Positions 424 through 9,844 of a stretch of 32,000 nucleotides of DNA are shown piece by piece. The stretch comes from an uncultured archaeon. Lineage in GTDB: Archaea; Asgardarchaeota; Thorarchaeia; Thorarchaeales; Thorarchaeaceae. Below the pieces are notes generated by a model. That model had not been told where the DNA came from, ran no database searches, and worked only from the letters and a program-made list of their open reading frames with translations. Each line of letters opens with the position of its first letter. The first letter of the stretch is position 1. The position numbers and the translations under genes were made by a program. Where the stretch lies: NCBI GenBank assembly GCA_964354495.1, contig CAYHAA010000019.1, forward strand, positions 29,335 through 61,334. The letters are read 5' to 3'.

Positions 424-2562
424 GTGAAGGATTTGAAAGGGCCCCTAGAAACAAAGCACGAAGGAATCAAGAGCATACTTCGCCAAGCAGAAGAGGATTT
501 GAAGGAGGTTCTGAGAGGCAAGAAGGTGCCTGAGGGAGAGGGGTTTTTCGGTGAGTCTCGGGAGTTCATGGTGTTCGAGCTCGCCAAATCCAAGAATCAG
601 GATACTGCAACGCTTCATATTGCTAATGCAGCCAACGAGGCCTTGCTTGAGATATTCAGGGATGTCAAAGAAGAAGCAAGTGCATCTGACTGTATTGAGT
701 CAATGACTCTCTGCGCATACGGTCTCATCCTGGGAAATTACAATGAAGAGGATTTCCGTTTCTTGTACAGGCAATCACTGCGGTATGTGAGAAATCAGAA
801 CACCATAGAAGAGTGGCTGCGCAACGCAATGGTCCTCCTTGCAGCAATCAACAACGATGACGCCCATAGTCTTCTGACAGAAATACGCCACTGGATTCAG
901 TTCCTTGGAGCACCTCTTTTCGGTACAACTTCCTTCATAGATGCCGGTAAGAAACTGGGGATAGATTTACAGCCCATCGTCGAATCCGAGGAGTATCGTC
1001 TGGTGAATGCTGTCGCACGTCATCCACAGTATCTCAGTGAGGCTGTAATGAATAGGTCGTTCTTTGACGCATTTGAATCGATGAAAGAGTGGGCGCCTGA
1101 TGCTGTCCTGCTCAATCTTCTCAAGATAAAGAAAGAGGAGGTCTACGGACATGGGCAGAATGAGATTAGACCAGACATGGCTGTTGAAGAAGCAGTCAAG
1201 ACTATATCGAGAATATTTGTGAAAGAGCAATTCAGGACAAACAAGCAGACAGTCCTACCAGTGAGACTTCAGGAGCTTGCTCGACCTCCGCCTGGCGAAG
1301 TTGTAGATCCAATCATCTTTGAGATGATACCGCAAAAGCTCCGAATGGATCTTCTTCCATCAGTTGCCTATTCTACCAAAATCAAGCACATTGAAATCAT
1401 ATTCCTCGGAGGGCACAGGATTGGTAGAAGCGGCATTCTCATAAAGACAGACACAGGCGGCATTCTGCTAGACTATGGTCTCTCAGTAGCGAATCACAGA
1501 ATTCCTGAATGGATTCCGGAGATGGACATGATAGATACCGTTCTTATCAGCCACTCACATCTGGATCATGTTGGAGGGCTACCAGTTCTCTATGAGGAGT
1601 TCACAGGGAAGTGGTGCTCTGTTGGTCCAACAGGAGCAGTCACAACGATTCTGCTTGACGATGCCCTGAAGGTTGGGACTCCATTCCCTCCTCGCAAGTA
1701 TGATGAGCTAGATCTCATCTCACGCTACAATGAAGAGAATATACAGAAGGTCGCAAAGAACCACGTGAAACTGGAATACGGGCAGAGCAGTGAGGTCGGT
1801 CCGGGCATAGTTGTCACCCCCATCGATGCATGTCATATACCCGGAAGCGCAGTCTATGCAATAGACATTGAAGGCGTCAAGATTCTATACACTGGTGACT
1901 TCAATCTTGACAAATCAGTACTATTCCCTGGAGCAAACATACCTACTGATGCACAGTACGTTATCTATGATGGCACCTACTGGGGGAGAGAGGATTTTGA
2001 TAGAGCCAAGGTGGCAGAACAAATCAGCAGGACAGTTGCGACTCACGGACCAGTGATAATACCGAGCTTCGCCGTGGGACGCTCGCAGGAAATTCTGCTA
2101 ATCTTGGAGGAACTTGGCATAACAAAGAACCGAAATGTCATGGTCACTGGGATGGCCGAGCGAGTGACAAAGGTTGTGGGTGTTACAGGCAGCTGGCAGA
2201 GCATGAAGAAGAACAGGACGCATCTTGAAGAGGAGGATGTACTTGTTGCGGGAGGAGGCATGATGAGTGGCGGGCTTGCAAGGCAGCACTTCAACGAACA
2301 GAGAAACAATCCAAAGGCAGCAGTGATTCTCTGCGGGTATCTAGCTCCGAGAACTTCAGGATGGAATCTTCTTCACGGCTATGAACCTCATGAGTGTGCT
2401 TTCGAATACGCTCGGTTAAGCGCTCATTCTTCATCGTCCAACCTTGAGAGATACGTCAACTCATGCAAAGGAAAGCGGATAATGGTGCATACACCAGTCT
2501 TCAGCCAGCCAAAGGGCATCATGATACCAAGCTACAAAGAGAGAATAACCATATCAATCTAG
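424..2562 (+). CDS. Metallo-beta-lactamase/beta-CASP ribonuclease (aCPSF-like) with ~320-aa uncharacterised N-terminal extension
   Basis: MBL motifs LLDYG, SHSHLDH (HxHxDH), CHIPGSA, YTGDF and DGTY. beta-CASP motifs PSFAVGRSQE, GGGMMSGG, CGY, SAH and VH. The catalytic domain starts at about aa 320 (IEIIFLGG). GTG start. Confidence 0.85.
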   Translation: MKDLKGPLETKHEGIKSILRQAEEDLKEVLRGKKVPEGEGFFGESREFMVFELAKSKNQDTATLHIANAANEALLEIFRDVKEEASASDCIESMTLCAYGLILGNYNEEDFRFLYRQSLRYVRNQNTIEEWLRNAMVLLAAINNDDAHSLLTEIRHWIQFLGAPLFGTTSFIDAGKKLGIDLQPIVESEEYRLVNAVARHPQYLSEAVMNRSFFDAFESMKEWAPDAVLLNLLKIKKEEVYGHGQNEIRPDMAVEEAVKTISRIFVKEQFRTNKQTVLPVRLQELARPPPGEVVDPIIFEMIPQKLRMDLLPSVAYSTKIKHIEIIFLGGHRIGRSGILIKTDTGGILLDYGLSVANHRIPEWIPEMDMIDTVLISHSHLDHVGGLPVLYEEFTGKWCSVGPTGAVTTILLDDALKVGTPFPPRKYDELDLISRYNEENIQKVAKNHVKLEYGQSSEVGPGIVVTPIDACHIPGSAVYAIDIEGVKILYTGDFNLDKSVLFPGANIPTDAQYVIYDGTYWGREDFDRAKVAEQISRTVATHGPVIIPSFAVGRSQEILLILEELGITKNRNVMVTGMAERVTKVVGVTGSWQSMKKNRTHLEEEDVLVAGGGMMSGGLARQHFNEQRNNPKAAVILCGYLAPRTSGWNLLHGYEPHECAFEYARLSAHSSSSNLERYVNSCKGKRIMVHTPVFSQPKGIMIPSYKERITISI

Positions 2563-4508
2563 GCCACGATTTCAAGAACGCCATCGAGAACAAGCTTCGT
2601 TGCCACGAATTTCATGGCCTGCATGCTCACGTTAATCTTGCGGACTACATCCTCCATTGATGTTTGACCATCACAGAAGTCGACAAACTTGATCACAGCC
2701 TGCCCGTAGGCCTTCTCGGTTTCCTCGCTGACAACTCCAACTTTCTTCAGAACGCTTGTTGGTCCAATTTCAACCTTGAAATCGACCCATCCATAGCGAT
2801 TCAGTATCTGCAGACAGCCAAGGACTATCTCACGGGGTAGGTTGAGACTCCGCACTAGACCACCAATAGTATCATTCTGCGCTATGGCGGACTGAACCTC
2901 CACAATCGCTGTACCTACCTCTCGATTGCTGAATGGTAGAGGTCTTCCAGCTTCTCTAGCTCTCAACAAGTAGTCAAGACTGATCGGTCTGAGCGGAACC
3001 TTCGCCAGAATGTCAAAGATCGAGGGCTCGAATACCGAACTACTGCCGTTCCATGCTGCCCAGACATTCTGATACTTCTGCTCGAGATCCACTAGTATTG
3101 AGTTCAGGACTCCTCTCTGTTCCTCCTCCTGGCTGTCATTTGTCACAATAAGCGCCATGACGAAGTGCGTGGATTTCTCAACCATCACGAGATTACCTTC
3201 GTGCTCAATCGTCTCAAGTGCATTAGTACCACTAGTGCCATCACTTGATTGTGCGTCAATTCCTCCAAATGAGTCGAGTGCAGATATGAGAGAAGCAATT
3301 GCGTTTTCATCAATGACTTCATCGACATAGCTCACATGAGTGACTACATCAGGAACACCGTCAGTTGGAACAATGGCTAAGAGGTGTAATATCTTCGAGT
3401 GGTCAGAAGCAGGTCGAACGGGGGTCTTCTGACTGGTGACTGTATCAGTGGTCGTTTTGTGACTTACAGTCTCTGCTTTCATGGCTGATGAATGTCCGGC
3501 TGCCACAGCATCAACCGAGGAGGTCGCTTCATCGTAGGGCACATCTTGAAACCCGGTTTCGCCTTCTTTGGCTTTCTTCGCTGCAGCTCCGGGTCGGTCC
3601 ATCTCCTCAGTTCCTCTCCTAACAGTAATCATCTCACTGATAGGCAGGTCGGGTAGTGTCACACCAACGGTCTTAGCAGCAACCTCAAGCATCATACGAA
3701 TGAATTCTTCGCGACGAGACTTGTCTGTAGCAATCATAGGGAATGTGGGAGCACCCAGAAGACGCTTGATTTTTTCAGCCTTCATGGACTCGGGAAGATC
3801 CTGCTTGTTTGCCAGAATGAAGAGAGGCACTGCAGGGGCTTCCTTCCTGATAGTACGAAGAAGGGACTTGGTCTGCATGACATTCCTGAAACTTGAGTCG
3901 GTGACCAGAAAGATAACATCGGTTCCAGAGAAGTAAAAGCTCCATAAATCTTGAAAGACTGCCTGTCCTGCGAAGTCCCAGACGGTCACAAGAAAAGTAC
4001 CGAATTGGATGGTTTCTGAGGAGTCCACAGCAACATTGATGGTTGGTACGTACCCTCCCGGCGCTGGCTCCTTGCCGAAGAGGAGTCGCAGGAGAGTGCT
4101 TTTACCAACACCACCGCTTCCAACGAAGCTGACCTTGAATCGTGTGAATATCAGTTCGCCGAGAATGTCATCGAGATTATCACGGATGTAACCTATGCTG
4201 TTTCCACGAAGGGCTGTGGAAACTCGGGACGCCCCTTCTCTGACTCTGTACTGGATGGCACGGTCTTCATCGCGTCCGTCGGTTACAAAGAGGAGGAGCA
4301 TCTCTCCGTCAACCTCGGCATGGAAGACCTTATGCTTCTCAGCCACGAAGACAGGAGTGTCTTGAGCGAGACCTTGTGTCCCAAAGAGGTCTCGATAGCC
4401 AGCCAGGAAGTCAGTGATATCTCTATCCACAAAGTCGATTTTCCAAAACCTAGTTCTCACTACAACGTTGCCATCTTCTTTTCCTATGAGCAAGACGTTG
4501 TGTATCAT
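2559..4508 (-). CDS. Multidomain small GTPase: N-terminal longin-like domain, Arf-like G domain, low-complexity linker, second longin domain, two winged helices
   Basis: G1 GSGGVGKS (aa130-137), G2 VPT156, G3 WDFAGQ (aa177-182), G4 NKQD (aa234-237). Flanking regions show the longin beta-beta-alpha-beta-beta-beta-alpha-alpha pattern. C-terminal wHTH motifs LNLPREIVLGCLQILNRYGWV and CDGQTSMEDVVRKINVSMQAMKFVATKLVLDGVL. Confidence 0.85.
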   Translation of the reverse strand: MIHNVLLIGKEDGNVVVRTRFWKIDFVDRDITDFLAGYRDLFGTQGLAQDTPVFVAEKHKVFHAEVDGEMLLLFVTDGRDEDRAIQYRVREGASRVSTALRGNSIGYIRDNLDDILGELIFTRFKVSFVGSGGVGKSTLLRLLFGKEPAPGGYVPTINVAVDSSETIQFGTFLVTVWDFAGQAVFQDLWSFYFSGTDVIFLVTDSSFRNVMQTKSLLRTIRKEAPAVPLFILANKQDLPESMKAEKIKRLLGAPTFPMIATDKSRREEFIRMMLEVAAKTVGVTLPDLPISEMITVRRGTEEMDRPGAAAKKAKEGETGFQDVPYDEATSSVDAVAAGHSSAMKAETVSHKTTTDTVTSQKTPVRPASDHSKILHLLAIVPTDGVPDVVTHVSYVDEVIDENAIASLISALDSFGGIDAQSSDGTSGTNALETIEHEGNLVMVEKSTHFVMALIVTNDSQEEEQRGVLNSILVDLEQKYQNVWAAWNGSSSVFEPSIFDILAKVPLRPISLDYLLRAREAGRPLPFSNREVGTAIVEVQSAIAQNDTIGGLVRSLNLPREIVLGCLQILNRYGWVDFKVEIGPTSVLKKVGVVSEETEKAYGQAVIKFVDFCDGQTSMEDVVRKINVSMQAMKFVATKLVLDGVLEIVA

Positions 4509-4591: not shown

Positions 4592-6334
4592 TCATTTTGC
4601 AGTCAATGAAACTACTCCACGTTTGTGCAACTCAGCAAAGACTTTCTGAAGGACGCTAGGCTGCAGTCCCAAGGTGCGTGCAATATCTTGAATACTGAGG
4701 GATCCATCAACCAGCGCAAGGATGGTACTAAGACCCTCATAGAGGGACATCACATCTTTACCAGGAACCACTACTAGTGAGGGAATGTCTTCAGGCTGTA
4801 CTCTCAGCTGGCAATCTATGGCGCCCAATCGATTGAGAAGGTGAATTGCGCCGAGAATTAACTCCGGACCTCTTCCCGGCGCCAACTTGGATATTGTAAG
4901 CGTGCCATTCAGTCGATACCAAACAGCTTCAAGGAATTCACGCACTGGCGCGTGCTCAAATCGCTCCCAAACTAGAGGCCTTTTTTGAATTGGTGCCACT
5001 CTTCCAGCTAGCACAGCAGGAGGGAGAGTAGCCAGCAACTTGATTGTGAAGAGAGGAGACCTGAAGAGGTCAGTAGGATCCTCAGATGGCTTAGGAATTT
5101 CATCGAGAAATAGGTCTGGAAGGAATGAGAAACGGGATCTCAGAGCCTCTACGTTTGCCTCACTTCTAGTGATCAACGTGAACACATAGTCGCTTCGTTC
5201 AATTGTGATGTAGCTCAAATCACCTGTTCTGAACACAGAGGTTTCAGCTGGGCCTGTTTGATCTATTTTGAAGGAGGATATGGCAGCGACAATATTCGGA
5301 GCCACCTCCAGCAGACCAGATCTCTCGTCGTAGTAGTAGCTGTACACTGCCTCCCCTGTTCTGCGATCTACAACGAAGAATGCCTTGTGCCCCGCGTCAA
5401 CGTTGGGTACCTCTTGAGGGGCACCGGGCTCACGAATCAGAGGCCCTATTTCCCATTTCTGCAGTGCCAGTTCTGGTTGCATATCGCAGAAACCGCCATA
5501 GGCCATAGCTGAGAGGAGTAGATTGATGGGCCTAGGAGAGACCGTATCACAGAGATCAACACCATGTTGAATCTCAAACTCTCGTGCAACCTCAAGGTCG
5601 TCGTCCGAGCCAGGAATCACTATTATCCGCGCACTTGATTCTTTGCGAATCTTGATAATAACATCCCGAATCATTTCGTTCTTTGCCATACCTTTTGAAA
5701 TGACCAATGCAAATAGCCCAACGGATTTCAGGGCATCGGGCCATGCAGCCTTGACGAGTCCAGCGCAAATCGCCCGCGTCGCCCTGACCGCATACGGACC
5801 GATTTTCATCACCTCTGAAAACTGTTCACCCGTATGCTGCTTAATCTCAAGAAGGCTTTCTACAGCAATCACTGACTTGTTATCGTCAGATTGCTCAGCA
5901 GCAGTCACAAAACAGATGTCGAGGTGAGTTCGAAGATGGGCATCTGCTACAACAGAGAACTCATTCTTAAAGTCGCGAACTGATTTGTCAACAATCTTTG
6001 ATGAAACAGCCGCCTGAAATTCCCGAAGCCGTGCTATCTCTTCATCTGTGAACGTTTCAGACTCGCTCACAGCGATGACTAGAGTCACATCACCTACTCT
6101 GCTGATACTTGTAGGACGACTATGTACATCCGTCACTATGAAACTTCGAGCTGCATCTTCCTGAATTAGTGCATAGTACTCGTTCACTACAGTAGCGATG
6201 AAGTCCTCGGTTATGCCATCTTTGATGAACGACAGCGATGCCAGTGCTTTTGAACCGAGCAGATCGTATAGTATGACTCTCGCAATCAAGCTCATCGGGT
6301 CTCCCGTTTCACCCAGTATCAACGTTCTTGCCAA
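4592..6334 (-). CDS. Paralog of 2559-4508: longin, degenerate (pseudo) G domain, longin, two winged helices
   Basis: Segments align in order with the neighbour: ELILGAIHLLNRLGAID vs EIVLGCLQILNRYGWVD; VDGSLSIQDIAR vs CDGQTSMEDVVR; IIKIRKES vs LRTIRKEA; MKIGPYAV vs IQFGTFLV. No P-loop, DxxG or NKxD. Start is TTG 6334 or ATG 6295. Confidence 0.75.
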   Translation of the reverse strand: MARTLILGETGDPMSLIARVILYDLLGSKALASLSFIKDGITEDFIATVVNEYYALIQEDAARSFIVTDVHSRPTSISRVGDVTLVIAVSESETFTDEEIARLREFQAAVSSKIVDKSVRDFKNEFSVVADAHLRTHLDICFVTAAEQSDDNKSVIAVESLLEIKQHTGEQFSEVMKIGPYAVRATRAICAGLVKAAWPDALKSVGLFALVISKGMAKNEMIRDVIIKIRKESSARIIVIPGSDDDLEVAREFEIQHGVDLCDTVSPRPINLLLSAMAYGGFCDMQPELALQKWEIGPLIREPGAPQEVPNVDAGHKAFFVVDRRTGEAVYSYYYDERSGLLEVAPNIVAAISSFKIDQTGPAETSVFRTGDLSYITIERSDYVFTLITRSEANVEALRSRFSFLPDLFLDEIPKPSEDPTDLFRSPLFTIKLLATLPPAVLAGRVAPIQKRPLVWERFEHAPVREFLEAVWYRLNGTLTISKLAPGRGPELILGAIHLLNRLGAIDCQLRVQPEDIPSLVVVPGKDVMSLYEGLSTILALVDGSLSIQDIARTLGLQPSVLQKVFAELHKRGVVSLTAK

Positions 6335-6353: not shown

Positions 6354-7589
6354 TCAACCTTGTTCAGCTCTCTTCGCGATGAGATTGTCAATCGAAATAA
6401 GACCTCTCATGTATCTTTGATAATCTGAGTCTATCTTAGAGCGGTCATATTCGATGGAATCCACGCCGCCACCAGAAGGAATCTCAGGTAGATCCTGTAT
6501 CGCTTCAGACACTGTAATCGGTGGTGGAAGAGATTTGCTCTCTGACAGGGCATCACCTGTCGCATTAAGGCGCGGAACTGTCGAGAACAGAGCATCGGGC
6601 TCCTCGAACAAGTCCCCATTTCGGGTTGCGATAATGAATACACGCCTCCTTCGCTGCGGCACTCCGTACTCCTCTGCTTTCAAGACCAATGTCCTGTGAT
6701 GATAGCCCTCTCTCGTTAATGTATCAAGCATGGTCTTCAACAATCGACCTTGATGTATCCATCGAATTCCTGGAACATTCTCGATAAGGACATTCTCGGG
6801 CCGCAGTTTGTGGATGAAGACCAAGGTCCTGAAGATCAAGGAGTTGCGAACATCCGAAGGTAATCGTTTGCCAGCAGTTGAGAATCCTTGGCACGGCGGG
6901 CCACCAGCCAGCAGATTCAGTGTGCGTCCCTTGAGCTTTGATTCAGTAGTATCAATGAGGTTGTCCGTGTCTGCCTCACTGAGGATATTGGCTTGGACAA
7001 CTGTGGCATTCTCATGATTCAATCGATATGTTTCGCACATGTGGCGGTTGAGGTCGGTTGCCACGAGAACTCGATGACCTGCCTGCCTCAGTCCCTCGGA
7101 GAGACCTCCTGCCCCGCAAAACAAGTCAACATAGGAACCGTGCTTGATTCCATCCCCAAGTACCTTGCCAAGAAGGGGAGGAACAGCGTTTCCAATCTGT
7201 TTGAATCGAGAGCTGAAACTACCGAGAAACCGATATCTGTCAGGAAAGGACTGCAATCGTGCTGCCTCTCGCATAGAGATTAGGCGGTCTTGAGTTGGGT
7301 GTATGAAGGTGCCGTTTCCCGGTCGATTGAAATAGGTGTTGATCGTGTAGCTCGGAAGGTCACCTCTCAGACGACCATAGTACGTCGTACGACCTCCAGA
7401 AATGGAGATTTGAGTGAGCCTTGCAGACTTTGCAATCGTTGCTTCGGGCAGATTGCTCCAATTGCCGCCTGATGGAACAGACCGGACGATCTCCATGTCA
7501 AGTTCGCTTAGCGTGGCACATGTGTGATTGTATAACATGTTGTTGATATCTTGTTCAGGCGCCTCTGCATTAGCTGAAACGAAATTCAC
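6354..7589 (-). CDS. DNA (cytosine-5)-methyltransferase, circularly permuted (TRD-IX-X-I...VIII)
   Basis: Motif IX REAARLQSFPD and X KQIGNAVPP come before motif I DLFCGAGG, IV GGPPCQGFS, VI ENVPG and VIII PQRRRRVFII. An SD-like GAGGGTGA (7600-7607, minus strand) lies 10 nt before the GTG at 7589. Confidence 0.93.
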   Translation of the reverse strand: MNFVSANAEAPEQDINNMLYNHTCATLSELDMEIVRSVPSGGNWSNLPEATIAKSARLTQISISGGRTTYYGRLRGDLPSYTINTYFNRPGNGTFIHPTQDRLISMREAARLQSFPDRYRFLGSFSSRFKQIGNAVPPLLGKVLGDGIKHGSYVDLFCGAGGLSEGLRQAGHRVLVATDLNRHMCETYRLNHENATVVQANILSEADTDNLIDTTESKLKGRTLNLLAGGPPCQGFSTAGKRLPSDVRNSLIFRTLVFIHKLRPENVLIENVPGIRWIHQGRLLKTMLDTLTREGYHHRTLVLKAEEYGVPQRRRRVFIIATRNGDLFEEPDALFSTVPRLNATGDALSESKSLPPPITVSEAIQDLPEIPSGGGVDSIEYDRSKIDSDYQRYMRGLISIDNLIAKRAEQG

Positions 7590-7606
7590 GAGGAAAAAGT
7601 CACCCT

Positions 7607-9844
7607 CTATCCTGAAAGACTTTCTCCTTCCATCTTCGACAACTCGTCAAGGATTTTGTCACGCTGATTCTCAGGGGTCTTGCGCAGGAAAAGAATTCCA
7701 TGAGCCTCTTTCATGCCTAGTCCATAGAGCGCAAAGGTTGATGCATCCAGCAAGGCCGAAAAATCATGCATTCCATCCTTGAGCTTCCGAACCTCCCTGA
7801 CCACTGTTTCCTCCAATTTGGCCTGCCCGCCTGCAGGCTGCGCTATGGGTAGACTCTGAAGTTCTCGAATAGATACATGATTGTTAGAGCTCGCGATCTG
7901 AAATCTCCAGTTAAGAAGCTCTGAGTTCAGGATTCCTAAGAGAAAATCCAAGTATCTGGATGAATCAGGATGCATGACCACCAAGTAGTTGCACGAGTTG
8001 GAGAGAATCGTGAGAGGTTCGACCAGAGCGAATTTGAGCCTCCATCTCTGTCCCATGTTTGAGATCTGTTGACAGATGATTCGCTTCATCGCGATATGTT
8101 CTGACCGCTCCGATGCATTGAGAGTCTTTCGAAATGACTCTAAGTCAACAAACTCTGAAGCGCGTCTGGTCTCTGTGAGATGAAAACGTCTGATATGAGA
8201 TCCTCTGATCAGCCTTGCATCTGATTCGTCTGAGGAAATGTGCGTCTTGTCCAAAGTGAGGTCTAATTCTCCTCGCCTTGCAAGAATCCAGCCCAGTGAT
8301 GAGAGAGGAGGCTGTCTATGCATTGTTTCCAAGTGTGTGAGACCCAAGGCGTCAACGCGGGGTATGACAAGAGACTGACCCATAGTCTGGAGAATTCGAC
8401 GAAGATTGATTTTGTGCCGCCCACGGCTGGAAGCATCATTCACGCCGGTTCGATTCAGACCAATCTCAAAGATATCCGTGCGACCTCCTTTCGTCAGAGT
8501 GATTATGGATACCGACTGTGTCACGCCAGTGAAAAGCCTCGATGCTTCAGGGAAATCATCAATGATGTTCACGACATTTCGAAGAAGAAGTTCCTGCCTG
8601 AGAGGTGCCGTTGAAATATCAGACAAGATATTTGATGGCACGATGAATCCGATATTGCCATTTGTCTTCGTGACCTGCAATGCTCGTTCGATGAAGAGCT
8701 GGTATGTATTGAGGGAATAGCTTGTCGCGAAACTGTATTCCTTGGAGTTACGGAAAAACCGTGTACTCTCGCGGATATCAGCTCTGTATTCCTCAAACTT
8801 ACTTGCATGAATCTCCCTCTCGCCACTTAGCAACTGCTCTCTCATGAACTCTGCTAGGTTTGGCTTTAGACGTTCATAGGGCGGATTCATGACCACGAAA
8901 TCAAAGCCCCCTTCCTCCCCGCAAAACACTTCCTTGAATGCGTTTCGCCATTCGAATGGAGTCTTTCCGTCCGGGTTGCGGAAGAAGTGTCGATGATTGG
9001 ATATCCCTGATATCCCATTAAGTGAAACCAGAGAATTCCCTCTTTTCAGAGTCGAACCAATGTGACTACTTCGAAATCTCAGTGGTTCTGGGCTTTCCAA
9101 GAGGCGCAGCGATACATCGGCGACCTCCAATGCCCCTGCATCTAGGTCCACCCCGTAGATTCGTGGAGAGCCATCCGTAAGGGACTCATCAATTTCATCC
9201 TTTGGAATGCCCATGCTCTCAAGGGCTTGAGTGGCTTCATGTAATGCCTGCTGTAATGCTCGCAGTGCTGAGACAAGGAATGCGCCAGAGCCACAGGCAG
9301 GATCTACTGTAAGCAATGAGGCAAGTGCCGCGAATGCAGAGATGCCGCTTTTTCTGACATGACGAATATGCTCTCGCAGCTTCGGTCCCAGTGTGAGTCG
9401 CACTATATGATCTGCAAGAGACTGAGGTGTATAGAAAGCACCAAGAGGTCTCTGAGACGAAGCCTGTTGTAGAGTGAGAGGCAATTGATATGAACCTAGG
9501 ACGTGAATTCTTCCTAGGAGTTCAATGAAGTCATTTATGGGGATTCTCTTGACGCTGTCATATTGCTCAAGTCTCAGTCCCTCAATTATTGAACGAGCTA
9601 GCTCTCCCACTTCTCTCCTAGCTACTCCACGTTTCTCACTCTCGTAGGAGAGCTCGGAGAATAGTAGCTGATCCTCATCGAGACCCAGATAGGCATTGCC
9701 AAAGCGATAGGTGGCAATCCAATTCAGCGCTGCAAGACGTACTGAATCAATCTGAAGCCTTGACTTGTGTGAGGAATCTAGAGCGGCATGATCGCGAACA
9801 TCACAGAGCATTGACCATGCCAGACTTCTGATTCTATCTTCCAA
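7607..9844 (-). CDS. N6-adenine DNA methyltransferase, probably Alw26I/Eco31I/Esp3I family
   Basis: GAFYTP, motif I VDPACGSGAFL, GVDLD, motif IV NPPYERLKP, YQLFIERAL and a C-terminal TRD-like region. Adjacency to a permuted m5C MTase is the hallmark of this Type IIS family. TTG start. Confidence 0.85.
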   Translation of the reverse strand: MEDRIRSLAWSMLCDVRDHAALDSSHKSRLQIDSVRLAALNWIATYRFGNAYLGLDEDQLLFSELSYESEKRGVARREVGELARSIIEGLRLEQYDSVKRIPINDFIELLGRIHVLGSYQLPLTLQQASSQRPLGAFYTPQSLADHIVRLTLGPKLREHIRHVRKSGISAFAALASLLTVDPACGSGAFLVSALRALQQALHEATQALESMGIPKDEIDESLTDGSPRIYGVDLDAGALEVADVSLRLLESPEPLRFRSSHIGSTLKRGNSLVSLNGISGISNHRHFFRNPDGKTPFEWRNAFKEVFCGEEGGFDFVVMNPPYERLKPNLAEFMREQLLSGEREIHASKFEEYRADIRESTRFFRNSKEYSFATSYSLNTYQLFIERALQVTKTNGNIGFIVPSNILSDISTAPLRQELLLRNVVNIIDDFPEASRLFTGVTQSVSIITLTKGGRTDIFEIGLNRTGVNDASSRGRHKINLRRILQTMGQSLVIPRVDALGLTHLETMHRQPPLSSLGWILARRGELDLTLDKTHISSDESDARLIRGSHIRRFHLTETRRASEFVDLESFRKTLNASERSEHIAMKRIICQQISNMGQRWRLKFALVEPLTILSNSCNYLVVMHPDSSRYLDFLLGILNSELLNWRFQIASSNNHVSIRELQSLPIAQPAGGQAKLEETVVREVRKLKDGMHDFSALLDASTFALYGLGMKEAHGILFLRKTPENQRDKILDELSKMEGESLSG

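What the first reader, a model, noticed from the sequence alone, without database searches (positions are those of the whole stretch)
5489..5932. Cryptic dead G domain inside the 580-aa protein
Seen: aa~135-282 keep the strand/helix order of the neighbour's GTPase: LDICFVT/FKVSFVG, MKIGPYAV/IQFGTFLV, AW…SVGLFALVIS/LW…GTDVIFLVTD, IIKIRKESSARIIVIP/LRTIRKEAPAVPLFILA. The P-loop is replaced by TAAEQSDDNKS, and DxxG and NKxD are gone. Motif-based annotation would miss this. Pseudo-GTPases are known in eukaryotes (for example p190RhoGAP, CENP-M); an archaeal one paired with its live paralog would be unusual.
Basis: partly seen in the sequence, partly recalled or inferred. Interest (0 to 1): 0.7.

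Follow-up and report, generated by a model that had tools for sequence, protein, structure and literature searches.

The report
Dead GTPase domain beside live paralog
A 580-residue Thorarchaeota (Asgard archaea) protein contains a Ras-like GTPase fold that has lost all its nucleotide-binding motifs, is kept under selection across a whole archaeal family, and always sits next to the live GTPase gene it was copied from.

Summary
Residues about 135-285 of the protein on window 4592-6334 (minus strand) fold as a Ras-like G domain in AlphaFold2 (pLDDT 88.7). The best structural neighbours are all small GTPases.

None of 161 family members has a Walker A motif. DxxG and NKxD are missing at their homologous positions, whereas the adjacent 649-aa gene keeps all three motifs in 23 of 23 orthologs.

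A profile built from this domain alone, run against all 9,759 ORFs of the organism's own genome, finds only itself and the neighbour's G domain, in register (E 0.0012). The two proteins align end to end (hhalign E 2.8e-10) and share one architecture: longin, G or pseudo-G, roadblock, tandem winged helix.

The pair is found in 80 of 85 genomes of one GTDB family. The genes are adjacent and co-directional wherever the contig allows the check. dN/dS of the dead domain is 0.14-0.32, so it is constrained, though far less than the live G domain (0.008 or below).

A sister-family genome has the live gene but no full-length dead copy. This suggests duplication followed by inactivation.

The most likely role is a nucleotide-free scaffold subunit of a Rag-like heterodimer; the complex prediction gives only weak support. 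I found no description of an archaeal pseudoGTPase in the searchable literature.

Extra finding: a split m6A/m5C DNA methyltransferase pair is co-inherited immediately upstream.

The parts
4592..6334 (-). Gene for the longin / pseudo-G / roadblock / tandem winged-helix protein (P0001, 580 aa from the TTG; the probable real start is the ATG at 6295, residue 14)
   Evidence: ORF list and translation; 124 close and 41 representative homologs, all Thorarchaeota; ortholog N-termini align to residues 14-16.
5933..6295 (-). N-terminal longin domain (aa 14-134), of the sigma-adaptin / zeta-COP / VAMP7 type
   Evidence: VIA-align on the full model: 9qpq_L Z 13.0, 5mu7_B Z 11.8, 4afi_A Z 11.7, AP-1 sigma3 (9ddt_B) Z 11.1, model range 14-136 or so.
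5480..5932 (-). Pseudo-GTPase domain (aa 135-285): Ras-like fold without G1, G3 or G4
   Evidence: AF2 domain model pLDDT 88.7; Foldseek and VIA hits to Rab/Ras/Rheb/Rag; motif scans; hhalign and hmmsearch to the neighbour's G domain.
5870..5905 (-). Loop that replaces the P-loop (aa 144-155): acidic, proline-containing, four residues longer than the neighbour's GSGGVGKS
   Evidence: hhalign register; across 52 members the loop averages 2.6 D/E, 0.7 K/R, 0.65 G and 1.5 P.
5573..5614 (-). New conserved motif P-G-S-D-x-x-L-E-x-A-R-x-x-E (aa 241-254) at the end of b5 and in a4, where NKxD should be
   Evidence: P241 in 51/52, S243 47/52, D244 47/52, L247 49/52, E248 47/52, R251 49/52, E254 49/52; aligned to ANKQD of the neighbour.
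5453..5554 (-). Second conserved patch L-C-D-S-V-S ... P-x-x-L-L-L-S ... A ... G ... D-x-x-P-E-L-A ... W (aa 261-294): b6, the G5 position, a5 and the exit helix
   Evidence: Column conservation in the 52-member domain alignment.
5795..5800 (-). Invariant G179-P180 at the b2-b3 hairpin (interswitch)
   Evidence: 52/52 and 51/52; aligned to G170-T171 of the neighbour.
5087..5401 (-). Roadblock domain (aa 312-416), the most constrained part of the protein
   Evidence: VIA: Ego3 (4ftx_B) Z 11.1 and a 118-residue chain of the GATOR1-Rag-Ragulator entry (7t3a_O) Z 10.8 at 20% identity, model range 312-416; dN/dS 0.03-0.06.
4595..5140 (-). Highly conserved linker segment (aa 399-475, low AF2 confidence) and the C-terminal tandem winged helix (to aa 580)
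   Evidence: Many invariant residues; pLDDT 53-71 over 400-440; weak wHTH Pfam hits at 537-577; BLASTP E 8e-8 and hhalign E 4.6e-10 to the neighbour's C-terminus.
2559..4508 (-). Adjacent live paralog (P0003, 649 aa): longin, Arf-like G domain, about 80 aa of disordered linker, roadblock, tandem winged helix
   Evidence: Pfam Arf 7.5e-19, Roc, Ras and Gtr1_RagA; Walker A, DxxGQ and NKxD in 23/23 orthologs; downstream on the same strand in 44 of 52 loci, the other 8 having no or too little downstream sequence to score.
3639..4145 (-). Live G domain of the neighbour (aa 122-290)
   Evidence: Pfam; dN/dS 0.008 or below in unsaturated pairs.
6354..9844 (-). Two co-directional DNA methyltransferase genes (Eco57I-type N6 MTase 7607-9844; C5 MTase 6354-7589) inherited together with the pair
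   Evidence: Pfam; present upstream in 38 and 41 of 52 loci, which is nearly every locus with enough flank; identities co-vary with the pair, r 0.86-0.95.

Best explanation
Residues about 135-285 are a pseudoGTPase domain. It is a Ras-like G domain that arose when the ancestor of the adjacent longin-GTPase-roadblock-winged-helix gene was duplicated, in or near the ancestor of one Thorarchaeota family. It then lost the P-loop (now an acidic, proline-containing loop), DxxG with the catalytic Gln, and NKxD.

Shown here: the predicted fold, the loss of motifs in every ortholog, paralogy with the neighbour, purifying selection, and strict gene pairing.

Inferred: the domain no longer binds guanine nucleotide, which would make it a class i pseudoGTPase. 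I infer that it acts as a fixed-state scaffold subunit. The dead protein would pair with the live GTPase through the roadblock and C-terminal regions, as RagA/RagC or Gtr1/Gtr2 pair through their roadblock domains, giving a heterodimer with one switch instead of two. The newly conserved patches at the former base-binding site (PGSD..LE.AR..E and LCDSVS), on a4/b6/a5, would then be a protein-contact surface rather than a nucleotide site.

My confidence is about 0.85 for 'pseudoGTPase paralog under selection', about 0.7 for 'no nucleotide binding' and about 0.5 for 'heterodimer with the neighbour'.
For: Fold: the AF2 domain model has pLDDT 88.7 and pTM 0.85, with strand and helix order b1-a1-b2-b3-a2-b4-a3-b5-a4-b6-a5 and a b2-b3 hairpin. 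In Foldseek against the PDB all 50 listed hits are GTPase entries, with Rab2B at E 1.2e-5 on top. In VIA-align wide, Rab28 has Z 10.9 (rmsd 3.4, 143 aligned) and ranks 1-41 are GTPase-containing entries. AFDB Swiss-Prot hits are Rab, Rheb and RasL11, plus the pseudoGTPase-like Irc6.

Motif loss: Walker A is absent in 161 of 161 family members. In the 52-member domain alignment there is no Walker A, and DxxG and NKxD appear only at non-homologous positions, against 23/23 for all three motifs in the neighbour family.

Paralogy: hhalign over the full length aligns 546 collinear columns, E 2.8e-10. On the domain alone P is 4.6e-5 in register, with controls at 0.05-0.6. In a genome-wide hmmsearch with the domain profile, the only hit besides self is the adjacent G domain, E 0.0012. 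The family profile also hits short longin + live-G paralogs over profile positions 1-230, at E about 1e-11.

Selection: dN/dS is 0.14-0.32 for the pseudo-G domain, 0.008 or below for the live G domain and 0.12-0.86 for the neighbour's linker.

Distribution and pairing: 80/85 genomes of the family carry it. The neighbour lies downstream on the same strand in 44 of 52 loci; the other eight have no or too little downstream sequence to score. The sister-family genome G311 has the live gene and no full-length copy of the dead gene.

Architecture: Rag/Gtr chains are the best Foldseek hits of the whole model (E 8.5e-7 to 1e-5, about 310-335 aligned columns), and the longin, G and roadblock domains are each assigned by VIA.

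Binding: the complex prediction scored ipSAE 0.41 against a best control of 0.00, verdict 'weak support'. That mark was reached by 58 of 80 solved complexes and 2 of 110 mismatched pairs, but a score of 0.60 or under by only 7 of those 80 solved complexes and by both mismatches that passed. The runs share at least 52% of contacts and the partner's pLDDT is at least 73.
Against: No biochemistry has been done. Loss of nucleotide binding is inferred from sequence only, and some pseudoGTPases with damaged motifs still bind nucleotide.

About half of the close orthologs keep a K/R-S/T pair at the end of the degenerate loop, and conservation at the former G4/G5 positions could mean a different small ligand is bound.

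The structural margin over other three-layer alpha/beta folds is modest (GTPases Z 9-10.9, CheY-like Z 8.8). The domain-level sequence signal is weak in absolute terms (17.6 bits).

The complex score is in the range where the tool says passes are more often wrong than right unless the guess was already likely, and no interface was reported. Four loci carry an opposite-strand ORF between the two genes, so co-transcription is not obligatory.

The function of the pair as a whole is unknown.
Confidence: 0.75

Rival explanations
1. The domain is a degenerate G domain that still binds a nucleotide or another phosphorylated or anionic ligand by non-canonical residues. That would make it a class ii/iii pseudoGTPase or a re-purposed ligand sensor rather than an empty scaffold.
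For: A K/R/M-S/T-G remnant sits at the P-loop/a1 junction in many orthologs. There is strong new conservation exactly where G4 and G5 lie (PGSD, CDSVS). dN/dS below 1 shows the domain does something.
Against: The glycine-rich loop is gone in 52/52 members. It is replaced by a net-acidic, proline-containing loop four residues longer. The base-specificity Asp of NKxD aligns to Leu, and the DxxG Asp and Gly align to Thr and Ile. The remnant Lys is not conserved in the distant half of the family.
Confidence: 0.13
2. The pair is not a trafficking- or signalling-type Rag-like module. Instead it is the non-methylase part of a domesticated restriction-modification-derived system: the winged helices bind DNA, and the GTPase / pseudo-GTPase pair acts on DNA marked by the two upstream methyltransferases.
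For: The co-directional cluster N6-MTase, C5-MTase, pseudo-G, GTPase is conserved with gaps of about 50 nt in nearly every locus with enough flank, and identities co-vary at r 0.86-0.95. The two MTases match consecutive parts of one fused Type II MTase model. No endonuclease is present. The C-terminal wHTH gives weak hits to MarR/Rrf2/CasR-like DNA-binding domains.
Against: Neither protein has a nuclease or defence-family hit apart from the weak wHTH. Near-universal, single-copy, vertically inherited distribution (80/85 genomes) is unlike defence islands. Flanking unrelated genes (the beta-CASP RNase and two more) are equally syntenic, so the linkage may only reflect conserved gene order. The sister-family genome has the GTPase without MTases upstream. 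Related genomes are not independent, so the correlations overstate the link.
Confidence: 0.1
3. The region is an unrelated flavodoxin- or Rossmann-like alpha/beta domain whose resemblance to a G domain is convergent or generic.
For: Three-layer alpha/beta folds are common. CheY-like receivers score Z 8.7-8.8. The PDB sequence-profile search finds only a designed Rossmann 2x2 protein, at E 0.0013. There is no Pfam hit.
Against: The b2-b3 antiparallel hairpin is typical of Ras-like GTPases. The top 41 structural neighbours are GTPase entries. The match to the neighbour's G domain is in register and is the only non-self hit in the genome. The domain sits at the same place in a collinear five-module architecture.
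Confidence: 0.03
4. Strain-specific decay: a pseudogene or a recently broken GTPase.
For: None beyond the missing motifs in this copy.
Against: The frame is open and full-length in about 70 genomes. Motif loss is shared by all 161 members. dN/dS is 0.10-0.18 over the whole gene.
Confidence: 0.01

Closest known systems
Class i pseudoGTPase domains of eukaryotes (CENP-M, p190RhoGAP pG1/pG2, AAGAB/Irc6 psGD)
   Same: G-domain fold with G motifs lost, conserved as a protein-interaction module. AAGAB's pseudoGTPase domain binds sigma-adaptin, a longin fold (PMC12490416), and here the pseudo-G is fused to a sigma-adaptin-like longin (9ddt_B Z 11.1). Irc6 appears among the AFDB hits.
   Different: This one is archaeal. 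It is embedded in a longin / G / roadblock / winged-helix chain and is paired with the live paralog of identical architecture in the next gene. There is no sequence relationship to any eukaryotic pseudoGTPase, and nucleotide binding is untested.
Rag/Gtr GTPase heterodimers (RagA/B-RagC/D, Gtr1-Gtr2) and the Asgard LokiRagO/LokiRagM structures (8yl2, 8zla)
   Same: A G domain followed by a roadblock domain. Two paralogous subunits are expected to pair. These chains are the best Foldseek hits of the whole model (E 8.5e-7 to 1e-5).
   Different: Both Rag subunits bind nucleotide, while here one is dead. Both proteins here carry an extra N-terminal longin and a C-terminal tandem winged helix. The live partner scores better as Arf (68 bits) than as Gtr1_RagA (25 bits) in Pfam. 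The heterodimer is only weakly supported.
NPRL2/NPRL3 of GATOR1 and other longin-based GAP/GEF pairs (FLCN-FNIP, C9orf72-SMCR8, Mon1-Ccz1, Fuzzy-Inturned)
   Same: Paralogous pairs that begin with a longin and end in winged-helix or helical domains. GATOR1, SEA-complex, Mon1-Ccz1 and CPLANE chains are among the Foldseek hits. Liu et al. reported an NPRL2-like 'longin + C-terminal domain' family in most Thor MAGs (bioRxiv 10.1101/2020.10.19.343400).
   Different: Those proteins have no G-fold domain between the longin and the tail. The 'GP motif' of GAP longins (PMC12290439) is only loosely matched: G-x-K before strand 2 in 43/54 members, G-P in 9/54. No arginine finger was identified.
Pseudoenzyme-enzyme paralog pairs in general, for example the degenerated septin subunits described as pseudoGTPases in hetero-oligomers (PMC10731463)
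   Same: A dead paralog is retained as an obligatory partner of live ones.
   Different: A different GTPase class and a different assembly type. Here the pair is encoded by adjacent genes in a prokaryote.

Membership tests
pseudoGTPase (G-domain fold with lost nucleotide function) | Adopts the Ras-like / TRAFAC G-domain fold | tested here: met
   Predicted structure only: pLDDT 88.7; Rab28 Z 10.9 (rmsd 3.4, 143 aligned); Foldseek Rab2B E 1.2e-5; b2-b3 hairpin present.
pseudoGTPase (G-domain fold with lost nucleotide function) | One or more of G1 (GxxxxGK[ST]), G3 (DxxG) and G4 (NKxD) absent at the homologous positions | tested here: met
   No Walker A in 161/161 members. DxxG and NKxD are absent at the aligned positions in 52/52. 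The neighbour family has all three motifs in 23/23.
pseudoGTPase (G-domain fold with lost nucleotide function) | Descends from a functional GTPase and is maintained by selection, not a decaying pseudogene | tested here: met
   The only non-self hit in the genome is the adjacent live G domain. The full-length alignment is collinear. dN/dS is 0.14-0.32. 80/85 genomes carry it.
pseudoGTPase (G-domain fold with lost nucleotide function) | Does not bind and/or hydrolyse GTP (class i: neither) | not testable with these tools
   Needs mant-nucleotide, ITC or thermal-shift assays and a phosphate-release assay on purified protein.
Rag/Gtr GTPase heterodimer | G domain followed by a C-terminal roadblock domain | tested here: met
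   Model residues 134-285 are G-like and 312-416 are roadblock (Ego3 Z 11.1; 7t3a_O Z 10.8). Rag/Gtr chains top the Foldseek list of the whole model.
Rag/Gtr GTPase heterodimer | Two paralogous subunits dimerise through their roadblock domains | tested here: inconclusive
   Complex prediction ipSAE 0.41 against a best control of 0.00, 'weak support', with no interface given. Gene adjacency is conserved.
Rag/Gtr GTPase heterodimer | Both subunits bind guanine nucleotide | tested here: not met
   By sequence, the 580-aa subunit lacks G1, G3 and G4. Biochemistry has not been done.
Rag/Gtr GTPase heterodimer | Sequence membership in Pfam Gtr1_RagA (PF04670) | tested here: not met
   The 580-aa protein has no hit. 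The neighbour has 25.4 bits (cut-off 22), but Arf scores 68.3 bits.
NPRL2/NPRL3-type longin GAP subunits | N-terminal longin plus C-terminal winged-helix region, in a paralogous pair | tested here: inconclusive
   The longin is assigned (Z 11-13). GATOR1 and SEA-complex chains are among the Foldseek hits at E 1e-5 to 3e-4, but the aligned ranges were not resolved. An inserted G-fold domain is not part of NPRL2/3.
NPRL2/NPRL3-type longin GAP subunits | GP motif before strand 2 of the longin and a catalytic arginine finger (PMC12290439) | tested here: inconclusive
   G-x-K before strand 2 in 43/54 members, but G-P in only 9/54. No arginine finger was identified.

The most novel reading that the evidence does not exclude
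The two genes encode an obligate asymmetric Rag-like heterodimer with one live and one permanently 'empty' G domain, each flanked by a coat-type longin and a LAMTOR-type roadblock. This would be a prokaryotic single-switch version of the eukaryotic longin/roadblock-GTPase regulatory machines. It would be functionally tied, through its winged helices, to the co-inherited split m6A/m5C DNA methyltransferase pair, giving a GTP switch coupled to DNA methylation or chromatin in an Asgard archaeon.
Probability: 0.12. Interest if true: 0.85.

Novelty: new variant of a known kind. Interest (0 to 1): 0.6.

Why it matters
PseudoGTPases are so far a eukaryote-centred concept. In the searchable literature 'pseudoGTPase' plus 'archaea' returned only two general pseudoenzyme and pseudokinase papers, and the Asgard GTPase surveys I read do not describe this family.

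Here the dead copy, the live copy it came from, and a sister-family genome that has the live gene but no full-length dead copy are all available. The path from duplication to inactivation to retention as a partner can therefore be reconstructed and tested.

The modules involved are a sigma-adaptin/zeta-COP-type longin, an Arf-like G domain, a LAMTOR/Ego-type roadblock and an NPRL-like winged-helix tail. Eukaryotes combine the same modules in Rag-Ragulator-GATOR, coat adaptors and AAGAB. The pair is thus a tractable prokaryotic model for how such GTPase platforms, and the use of dead subunits in them, arose.

It also shows that HMM-based annotation of Asgard 'eukaryotic signature' GTPases undercounts degenerate members.

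Tried and rejected
- BLASTP between the two proteins finds only the C-terminal 90 residues (E 8e-8) and nothing in the G region, so profile methods were needed.
- Pfam on the protein and on all 52 domain sequences gave no GTPase family.
- A profile search of PDB sequences gave only a designed Rossmann protein at E 0.0013.
- The search for related loci with the divergent alignment A3 failed because no stretch was conserved enough. It was repeated with A1.
- hhalign on the N-longin and roadblock domains alone gave no significant signal between the two families (0.0034 and 0.16). Their correspondence rests on the collinear full-length alignment and on structure.
- PADLOC gave no defence-family hit for either protein apart from a weak CARF/CasR-type wHTH hit.
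- A search for the LokiRag structure paper found nothing, and the Stiegler and Boggon 2020 review is not held.
- A PD-(D/E)xK reading of the conserved PDLF.DE segment (aa 406-412) was considered and dropped. The spacing is wrong and the Lys is not conserved.
- The 'GP motif' GAP-longin idea was checked and left inconclusive.
Full report
WHAT IS THERE

The finding lies in a minus-strand ORF at window 4592-6334 (580 codons from a TTG). Most orthologs begin at a Met that aligns to residues 14-16, so the ATG at 6295 is the more likely start.

Eighty-three bases downstream on the same strand lies a 649-aa gene (2559-4508). Its residues 122-254 match the Pfam families Arf (7.5e-19), Roc, Ras and Gtr1_RagA. 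It carries GSGGVGKS, DFAGQ and NKQD. The 580-aa protein has no Pfam hit apart from weak winged-helix matches at its extreme C-terminus.

IS THE RESEMBLANCE REAL?

BLASTP between the two proteins sees only the C-terminal 90 residues (E 8e-8). Profiles see more.

- A 33-sequence alignment of orthologs of the 580-aa protein, compared with a 23-sequence alignment of orthologs of the neighbour, gives one collinear hhalign match of 546 columns (probability 96.8%, E 2.8e-10). It places the neighbour's P-loop against T144-AAEQSDDNKS with a four-residue insertion.
- With both alignments cut to the G region alone, a 52-sequence domain alignment still matches the neighbour's G region in register (75 columns, P 4.6e-5). 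The three off-target pairings of the domain alignment gave 0.05-0.18, and the three longin/roadblock cross-pairings 0.41-0.61.
- As an unbiased test I built an HMM from the domain alone and searched all 9,759 six-frame ORFs of at least 80 aa in the organism's own 3.3-Mb genome. At E up to 10 there are two hits: the protein itself, and the adjacent GTPase (E 0.0012; profile positions 56-130 against neighbour residues about 164-239).
- The full-length family profile also hits short (292-307 aa) longin + live-G paralogs in related genomes over positions 1-230, at about 1e-11. A 295-aa paralog of the same kind in the own genome is hit over positions 1-129.

FOLD

AlphaFold2 on the whole protein gives pLDDT 77.5 (33 sequences). 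On residues 118-298 it gives pLDDT 88.7 and pTM 0.85 (52 sequences). Both models show b1-a1-b2-b3-a2-b4-a3-b5-a4-b6-a5, with b2 and b3 forming a hairpin. That order and hairpin are the Ras-like arrangement.

- Foldseek of the domain model against the PDB lists only GTPase entries in the top 50 (Rab2B 1.2e-5, Rab2A, Rab1a, HRAS, KRAS, MglA).
- The Foldseek-independent VIA-align search of 48,161 chains puts Rab28 first (Z 10.9, rmsd 3.4, 143 aligned). GTPase-containing entries fill ranks 1-41 before the first CheY-like receiver at Z 8.8. The margin over other three-layer alpha/beta folds is therefore real but modest.
- AFDB Swiss-Prot gives Rab, Rheb, RasL11 and, at rank 11, Irc6, the yeast homolog of the AAGAB pseudoGTPase.

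On the whole model, VIA assigns four parts. Residues 14-136 are a sigma-adaptin / zeta-COP / VAMP7-type longin (Z 11-13). Residues 134-285 are the G fold (Z about 11). Residues 312-416 are an Ego3/LAMTOR-type roadblock (Z 10.8-11.1). The remainder is winged helix. Foldseek of the whole model ranks Rag/Gtr chains first (E 8.5e-7 to 1e-5 over about 310-335 columns). It also lists the Lokiarchaeota RagA-like structures, GATOR1 and SEA-complex chains, Mon1-Ccz1 and CPLANE.

MOTIF LOSS IS ANCESTRAL TO THE FAMILY, NOT DECAY

- The word-indexed search found 124 relatives, all from Thorarchaeota MAGs.
- The exhaustive search of 1.84 billion representatives found only 41 clusters, with full-length members down to 29-30% identity.
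- None of 161 members has a Walker A in the domain; the single regex hit is in the C-terminal tail.
- In the 52-member domain alignment, DxxG and NKxD occur only at non-homologous positions. All 23 neighbour orthologs have Walker A, DxxGQ and NKxD.
- The loop that replaces the P-loop is variable, net acidic (mean 2.6 D/E against 0.7 K/R), proline-containing and glycine-poor.
- By the hhalign register, D178/G181/Q182 of the neighbour face T187/I190/C191, and N234-K-Q-D237 faces S243-D-D-L246.
- New motifs have become conserved: G179-P180 at the b2-b3 turn (52/52 and 51/52), P-G-S-D-x-x-L-E-x-A-R-x-x-E at 241-254, and L-C-D-S-V-S ... P..LLLS at 261-275. These lie at the former G4/G5 positions and on a4/b6/a5.

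SELECTION, DISTRIBUTION AND PAIRING

For eight ortholog pairs with unsaturated dS (0.17-0.94), Nei-Gojobori dN/dS is as follows.

| Region | dN/dS |
|---|---|
| Pseudo-G domain | 0.14-0.32 |
| Roadblock of the 580-aa protein | 0.03-0.06 |
| Tail of the 580-aa protein | 0.04-0.11 |
| Live G domain of the neighbour | 0.008 or below |
| Disordered linker of the neighbour | 0.12-0.86 |

The dead domain is thus constrained but greatly relaxed relative to the live one.

A profile search of 400 Asgard genomes finds the family profile in 80 of 85 genomes of one GTDB family, the window's own. The five without it are 52-85% complete. No full-length copy turns up outside that family.

In 52 loci fetched from species-representative genomes, the live gene lies downstream on the same strand in 44. 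It is usually about 100 nt away. In four loci it is separated by an opposite-strand ORF of about 526 aa. The other eight loci have no or too little downstream sequence to score. The neighbour evolves much more slowly (58-96% identity to the window copy) than the dead paralog (33-91%).

The one sister-family genome has the 644-aa live ortholog with an unrelated gene upstream, and a separate 275-aa roadblock + winged-helix protein, but no full-length dead copy. This suggests duplication of the live gene followed by inactivation in or near the family's ancestor.

HOW IT PROBABLY WORKS

Shown: the domain is a G-fold paralog without G1, G3 or G4, kept by selection, always next to its live counterpart, and the two share one five-module architecture.

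Inferred: it does not bind nucleotide, which would make it class i in the pseudoGTPase classification cited in PMC12490416. It would act as a fixed-conformation subunit that pairs with the live GTPase. The most likely contact is through the roadblock and the extremely conserved but poorly modelled stretch 399-475. The result would be a single-switch heterodimer comparable to RagA/C, where pairing through roadblock domains is the rule.

The one complex prediction used residues 125-580 with residues 112-649 of the neighbour, each with its own alignment. It scored ipSAE 0.41 in all three runs against 0.00 for the best of three controls, and the verdict was 'weak support'. That mark was reached by 58 of 80 solved complexes and 2 of 110 mismatched pairs. 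A score of 0.60 or under was seen in only 7 of those 80 solved complexes and in both mismatches that passed. The runs share at least 52% of contacts, the partner's pLDDT is at least 73, and no interface was reported. Given the prior from paralogy and adjacency, I take this as a mild increase in odds.

An instructive parallel is AAGAB, whose class i pseudoGTPase domain holds sigma-adaptin, a longin (PMC12490416). Here a pseudo-G is fused to a sigma-adaptin-like longin (9ddt_B Z 11.1).

RIVALS

- Residual or altered ligand binding cannot be excluded. A K/R-S/T pair survives at the loop/a1 junction in many orthologs, and the G4/G5 positions are newly conserved.
- A DNA-linked role is raised by an unexpected observation: the two upstream methyltransferase genes are co-inherited with the pair in nearly every locus with enough flank (38 and 41 of 52). 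Gaps are about 50 nt and divergence co-varies (r 0.86-0.95; the genomes are related, so this is descriptive only). Both MTases map onto consecutive parts of one fused Type II MTase model. Against a specific link, the unrelated downstream genes are equally syntenic, the sister-family genome lacks the MTases next to its GTPase, and neither protein has a nuclease or defence-family signature.
- Convergent fold and strain-specific decay are effectively excluded.

COMPARISON WITH WHAT IS KNOWN, AND NOVELTY

By fold and motif loss the domain qualifies as a pseudoGTPase; the defining biochemical feature is untested. It works like, but is not a member of, the Rag/Gtr family: there is no Gtr1_RagA hit, one subunit is dead, and there are extra longin and winged-helix modules.

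Liu et al. noted an NPRL2-like 'longin + C-terminal domain' family in most Thor MAGs (bioRxiv 10.1101/2020.10.19.343400). That may overlap with this family or with its 275-aa relatives, but they describe no G-fold or pseudoGTPase domain.

The Asgard Arf and Rab/roadblock papers I searched (bioRxiv 10.1101/2024.02.28.582541; PMC10933270) do not describe this family. 'pseudoGTPase' with 'archaea' returns only two general reviews. Within the searchable literature this is therefore a new, archaeal variant of a known kind of pseudoenzyme. Its value is that the live parent and the pre-duplication state are both at hand.

LIMITS

All structures are predictions. The complex interface was not reported, and function is inferred.

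Noticed in passing
window 6354-9844 (minus strand) and loci L003-L052: The Eco57I-type N6 MTase and the C5 MTase directly upstream are not a strain-specific insertion. The co-directional order N6-MTase, C5-MTase, pseudo-G, GTPase, then a convergent beta-CASP RNase, is conserved in nearly every Thorarchaeota locus with enough flank. Gaps are about 50 nt and divergence co-varies (r 0.86-0.95).
   Followed up: partly
window 6354-7589 and 7607-9844: Both MTases match consecutive parts of one fused PADLOC Type II MTase model, PDLC03237. The N6 MTase covers model positions 218-615 and the C5 MTase covers 646-1014, so they look like a split form of a fused m6A+m5C enzyme. No endonuclease gene is present.
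   Followed up: partly
window 6354-7589 (minus strand): The C5 MTase seems circularly permuted. Read by eye from the translation, motifs IX/X-like (RLISMREAARLQSFPD, GNAVPP) come before motif I (DLFCGAGG), motif IV (PPCQGFS) and QRRRRVF. Pfam also matches it in two stretches.
   Followed up: no
L053:2000-2887 (own genome, contig C7); L056:1299-2177 and 2266-3189 (genome G349): Short (292-307 aa) paralogs made of a longin plus a live G domain (GESGVGKT / GEGGVGKT and NKQD; DxxG in two of the three), without roadblock or winged helix. In G349 two lie in tandem. The G349 pair is hit by the pseudo-GTPase family profile over positions 1-230; the own-genome copy is hit over 1-129.
   Followed up: partly
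L054:1863-2690 and L055:2168-4102 (sister-family genome G311): The sister family has the 644-aa live GTPase ortholog with an unrelated 500-aa secreted-looking protein upstream. Elsewhere it has a 275-aa roadblock + tandem winged-helix protein that matches the C-terminal half of the pseudo-GTPase family (E 2.7e-20). ORFs of about 270-310 aa matching the same part of the profile occur in many Thorarchaeota genomes.
   Followed up: partly
loci L024, L026, L038, L050: An ORF of about 526 aa on the opposite strand (plus further ORFs in L038) is inserted between the pseudo-GTPase and GTPase genes. The pair survives physical separation of 1.9-3.6 kb.
   Followed up: no
window 4910-5140 (aa 399-475 of the 580-aa protein): This is the most conserved stretch of the protein (RFSFLPDL..DE.P, FTLKLLATLPP, W.RF, DFLEAVW; many invariant residues), yet it is modelled with low confidence (pLDDT 53-71). 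It is a candidate fold-on-binding interface.
   Followed up: no
window 3393-3623 (aa 296-372 of the neighbour): The live GTPase carries a low-complexity linker of about 80 aa (rich in T, S, A, K and E) between the G domain and the roadblock. Its dN/dS is 0.12-0.86. The pseudo-GTPase protein has only about 25 residues at that position.
   Followed up: no
window 6256-6264 (aa 27-29): The N-terminal longin has a G-x-K turn just before strand 2 in 43 of 54 family members (GSK 30, GPK 8). This is the position of the 'GP motif' of eukaryotic GAP longins (PMC12290439), but G-P itself occurs in only 9 of 54.
   Followed up: partly
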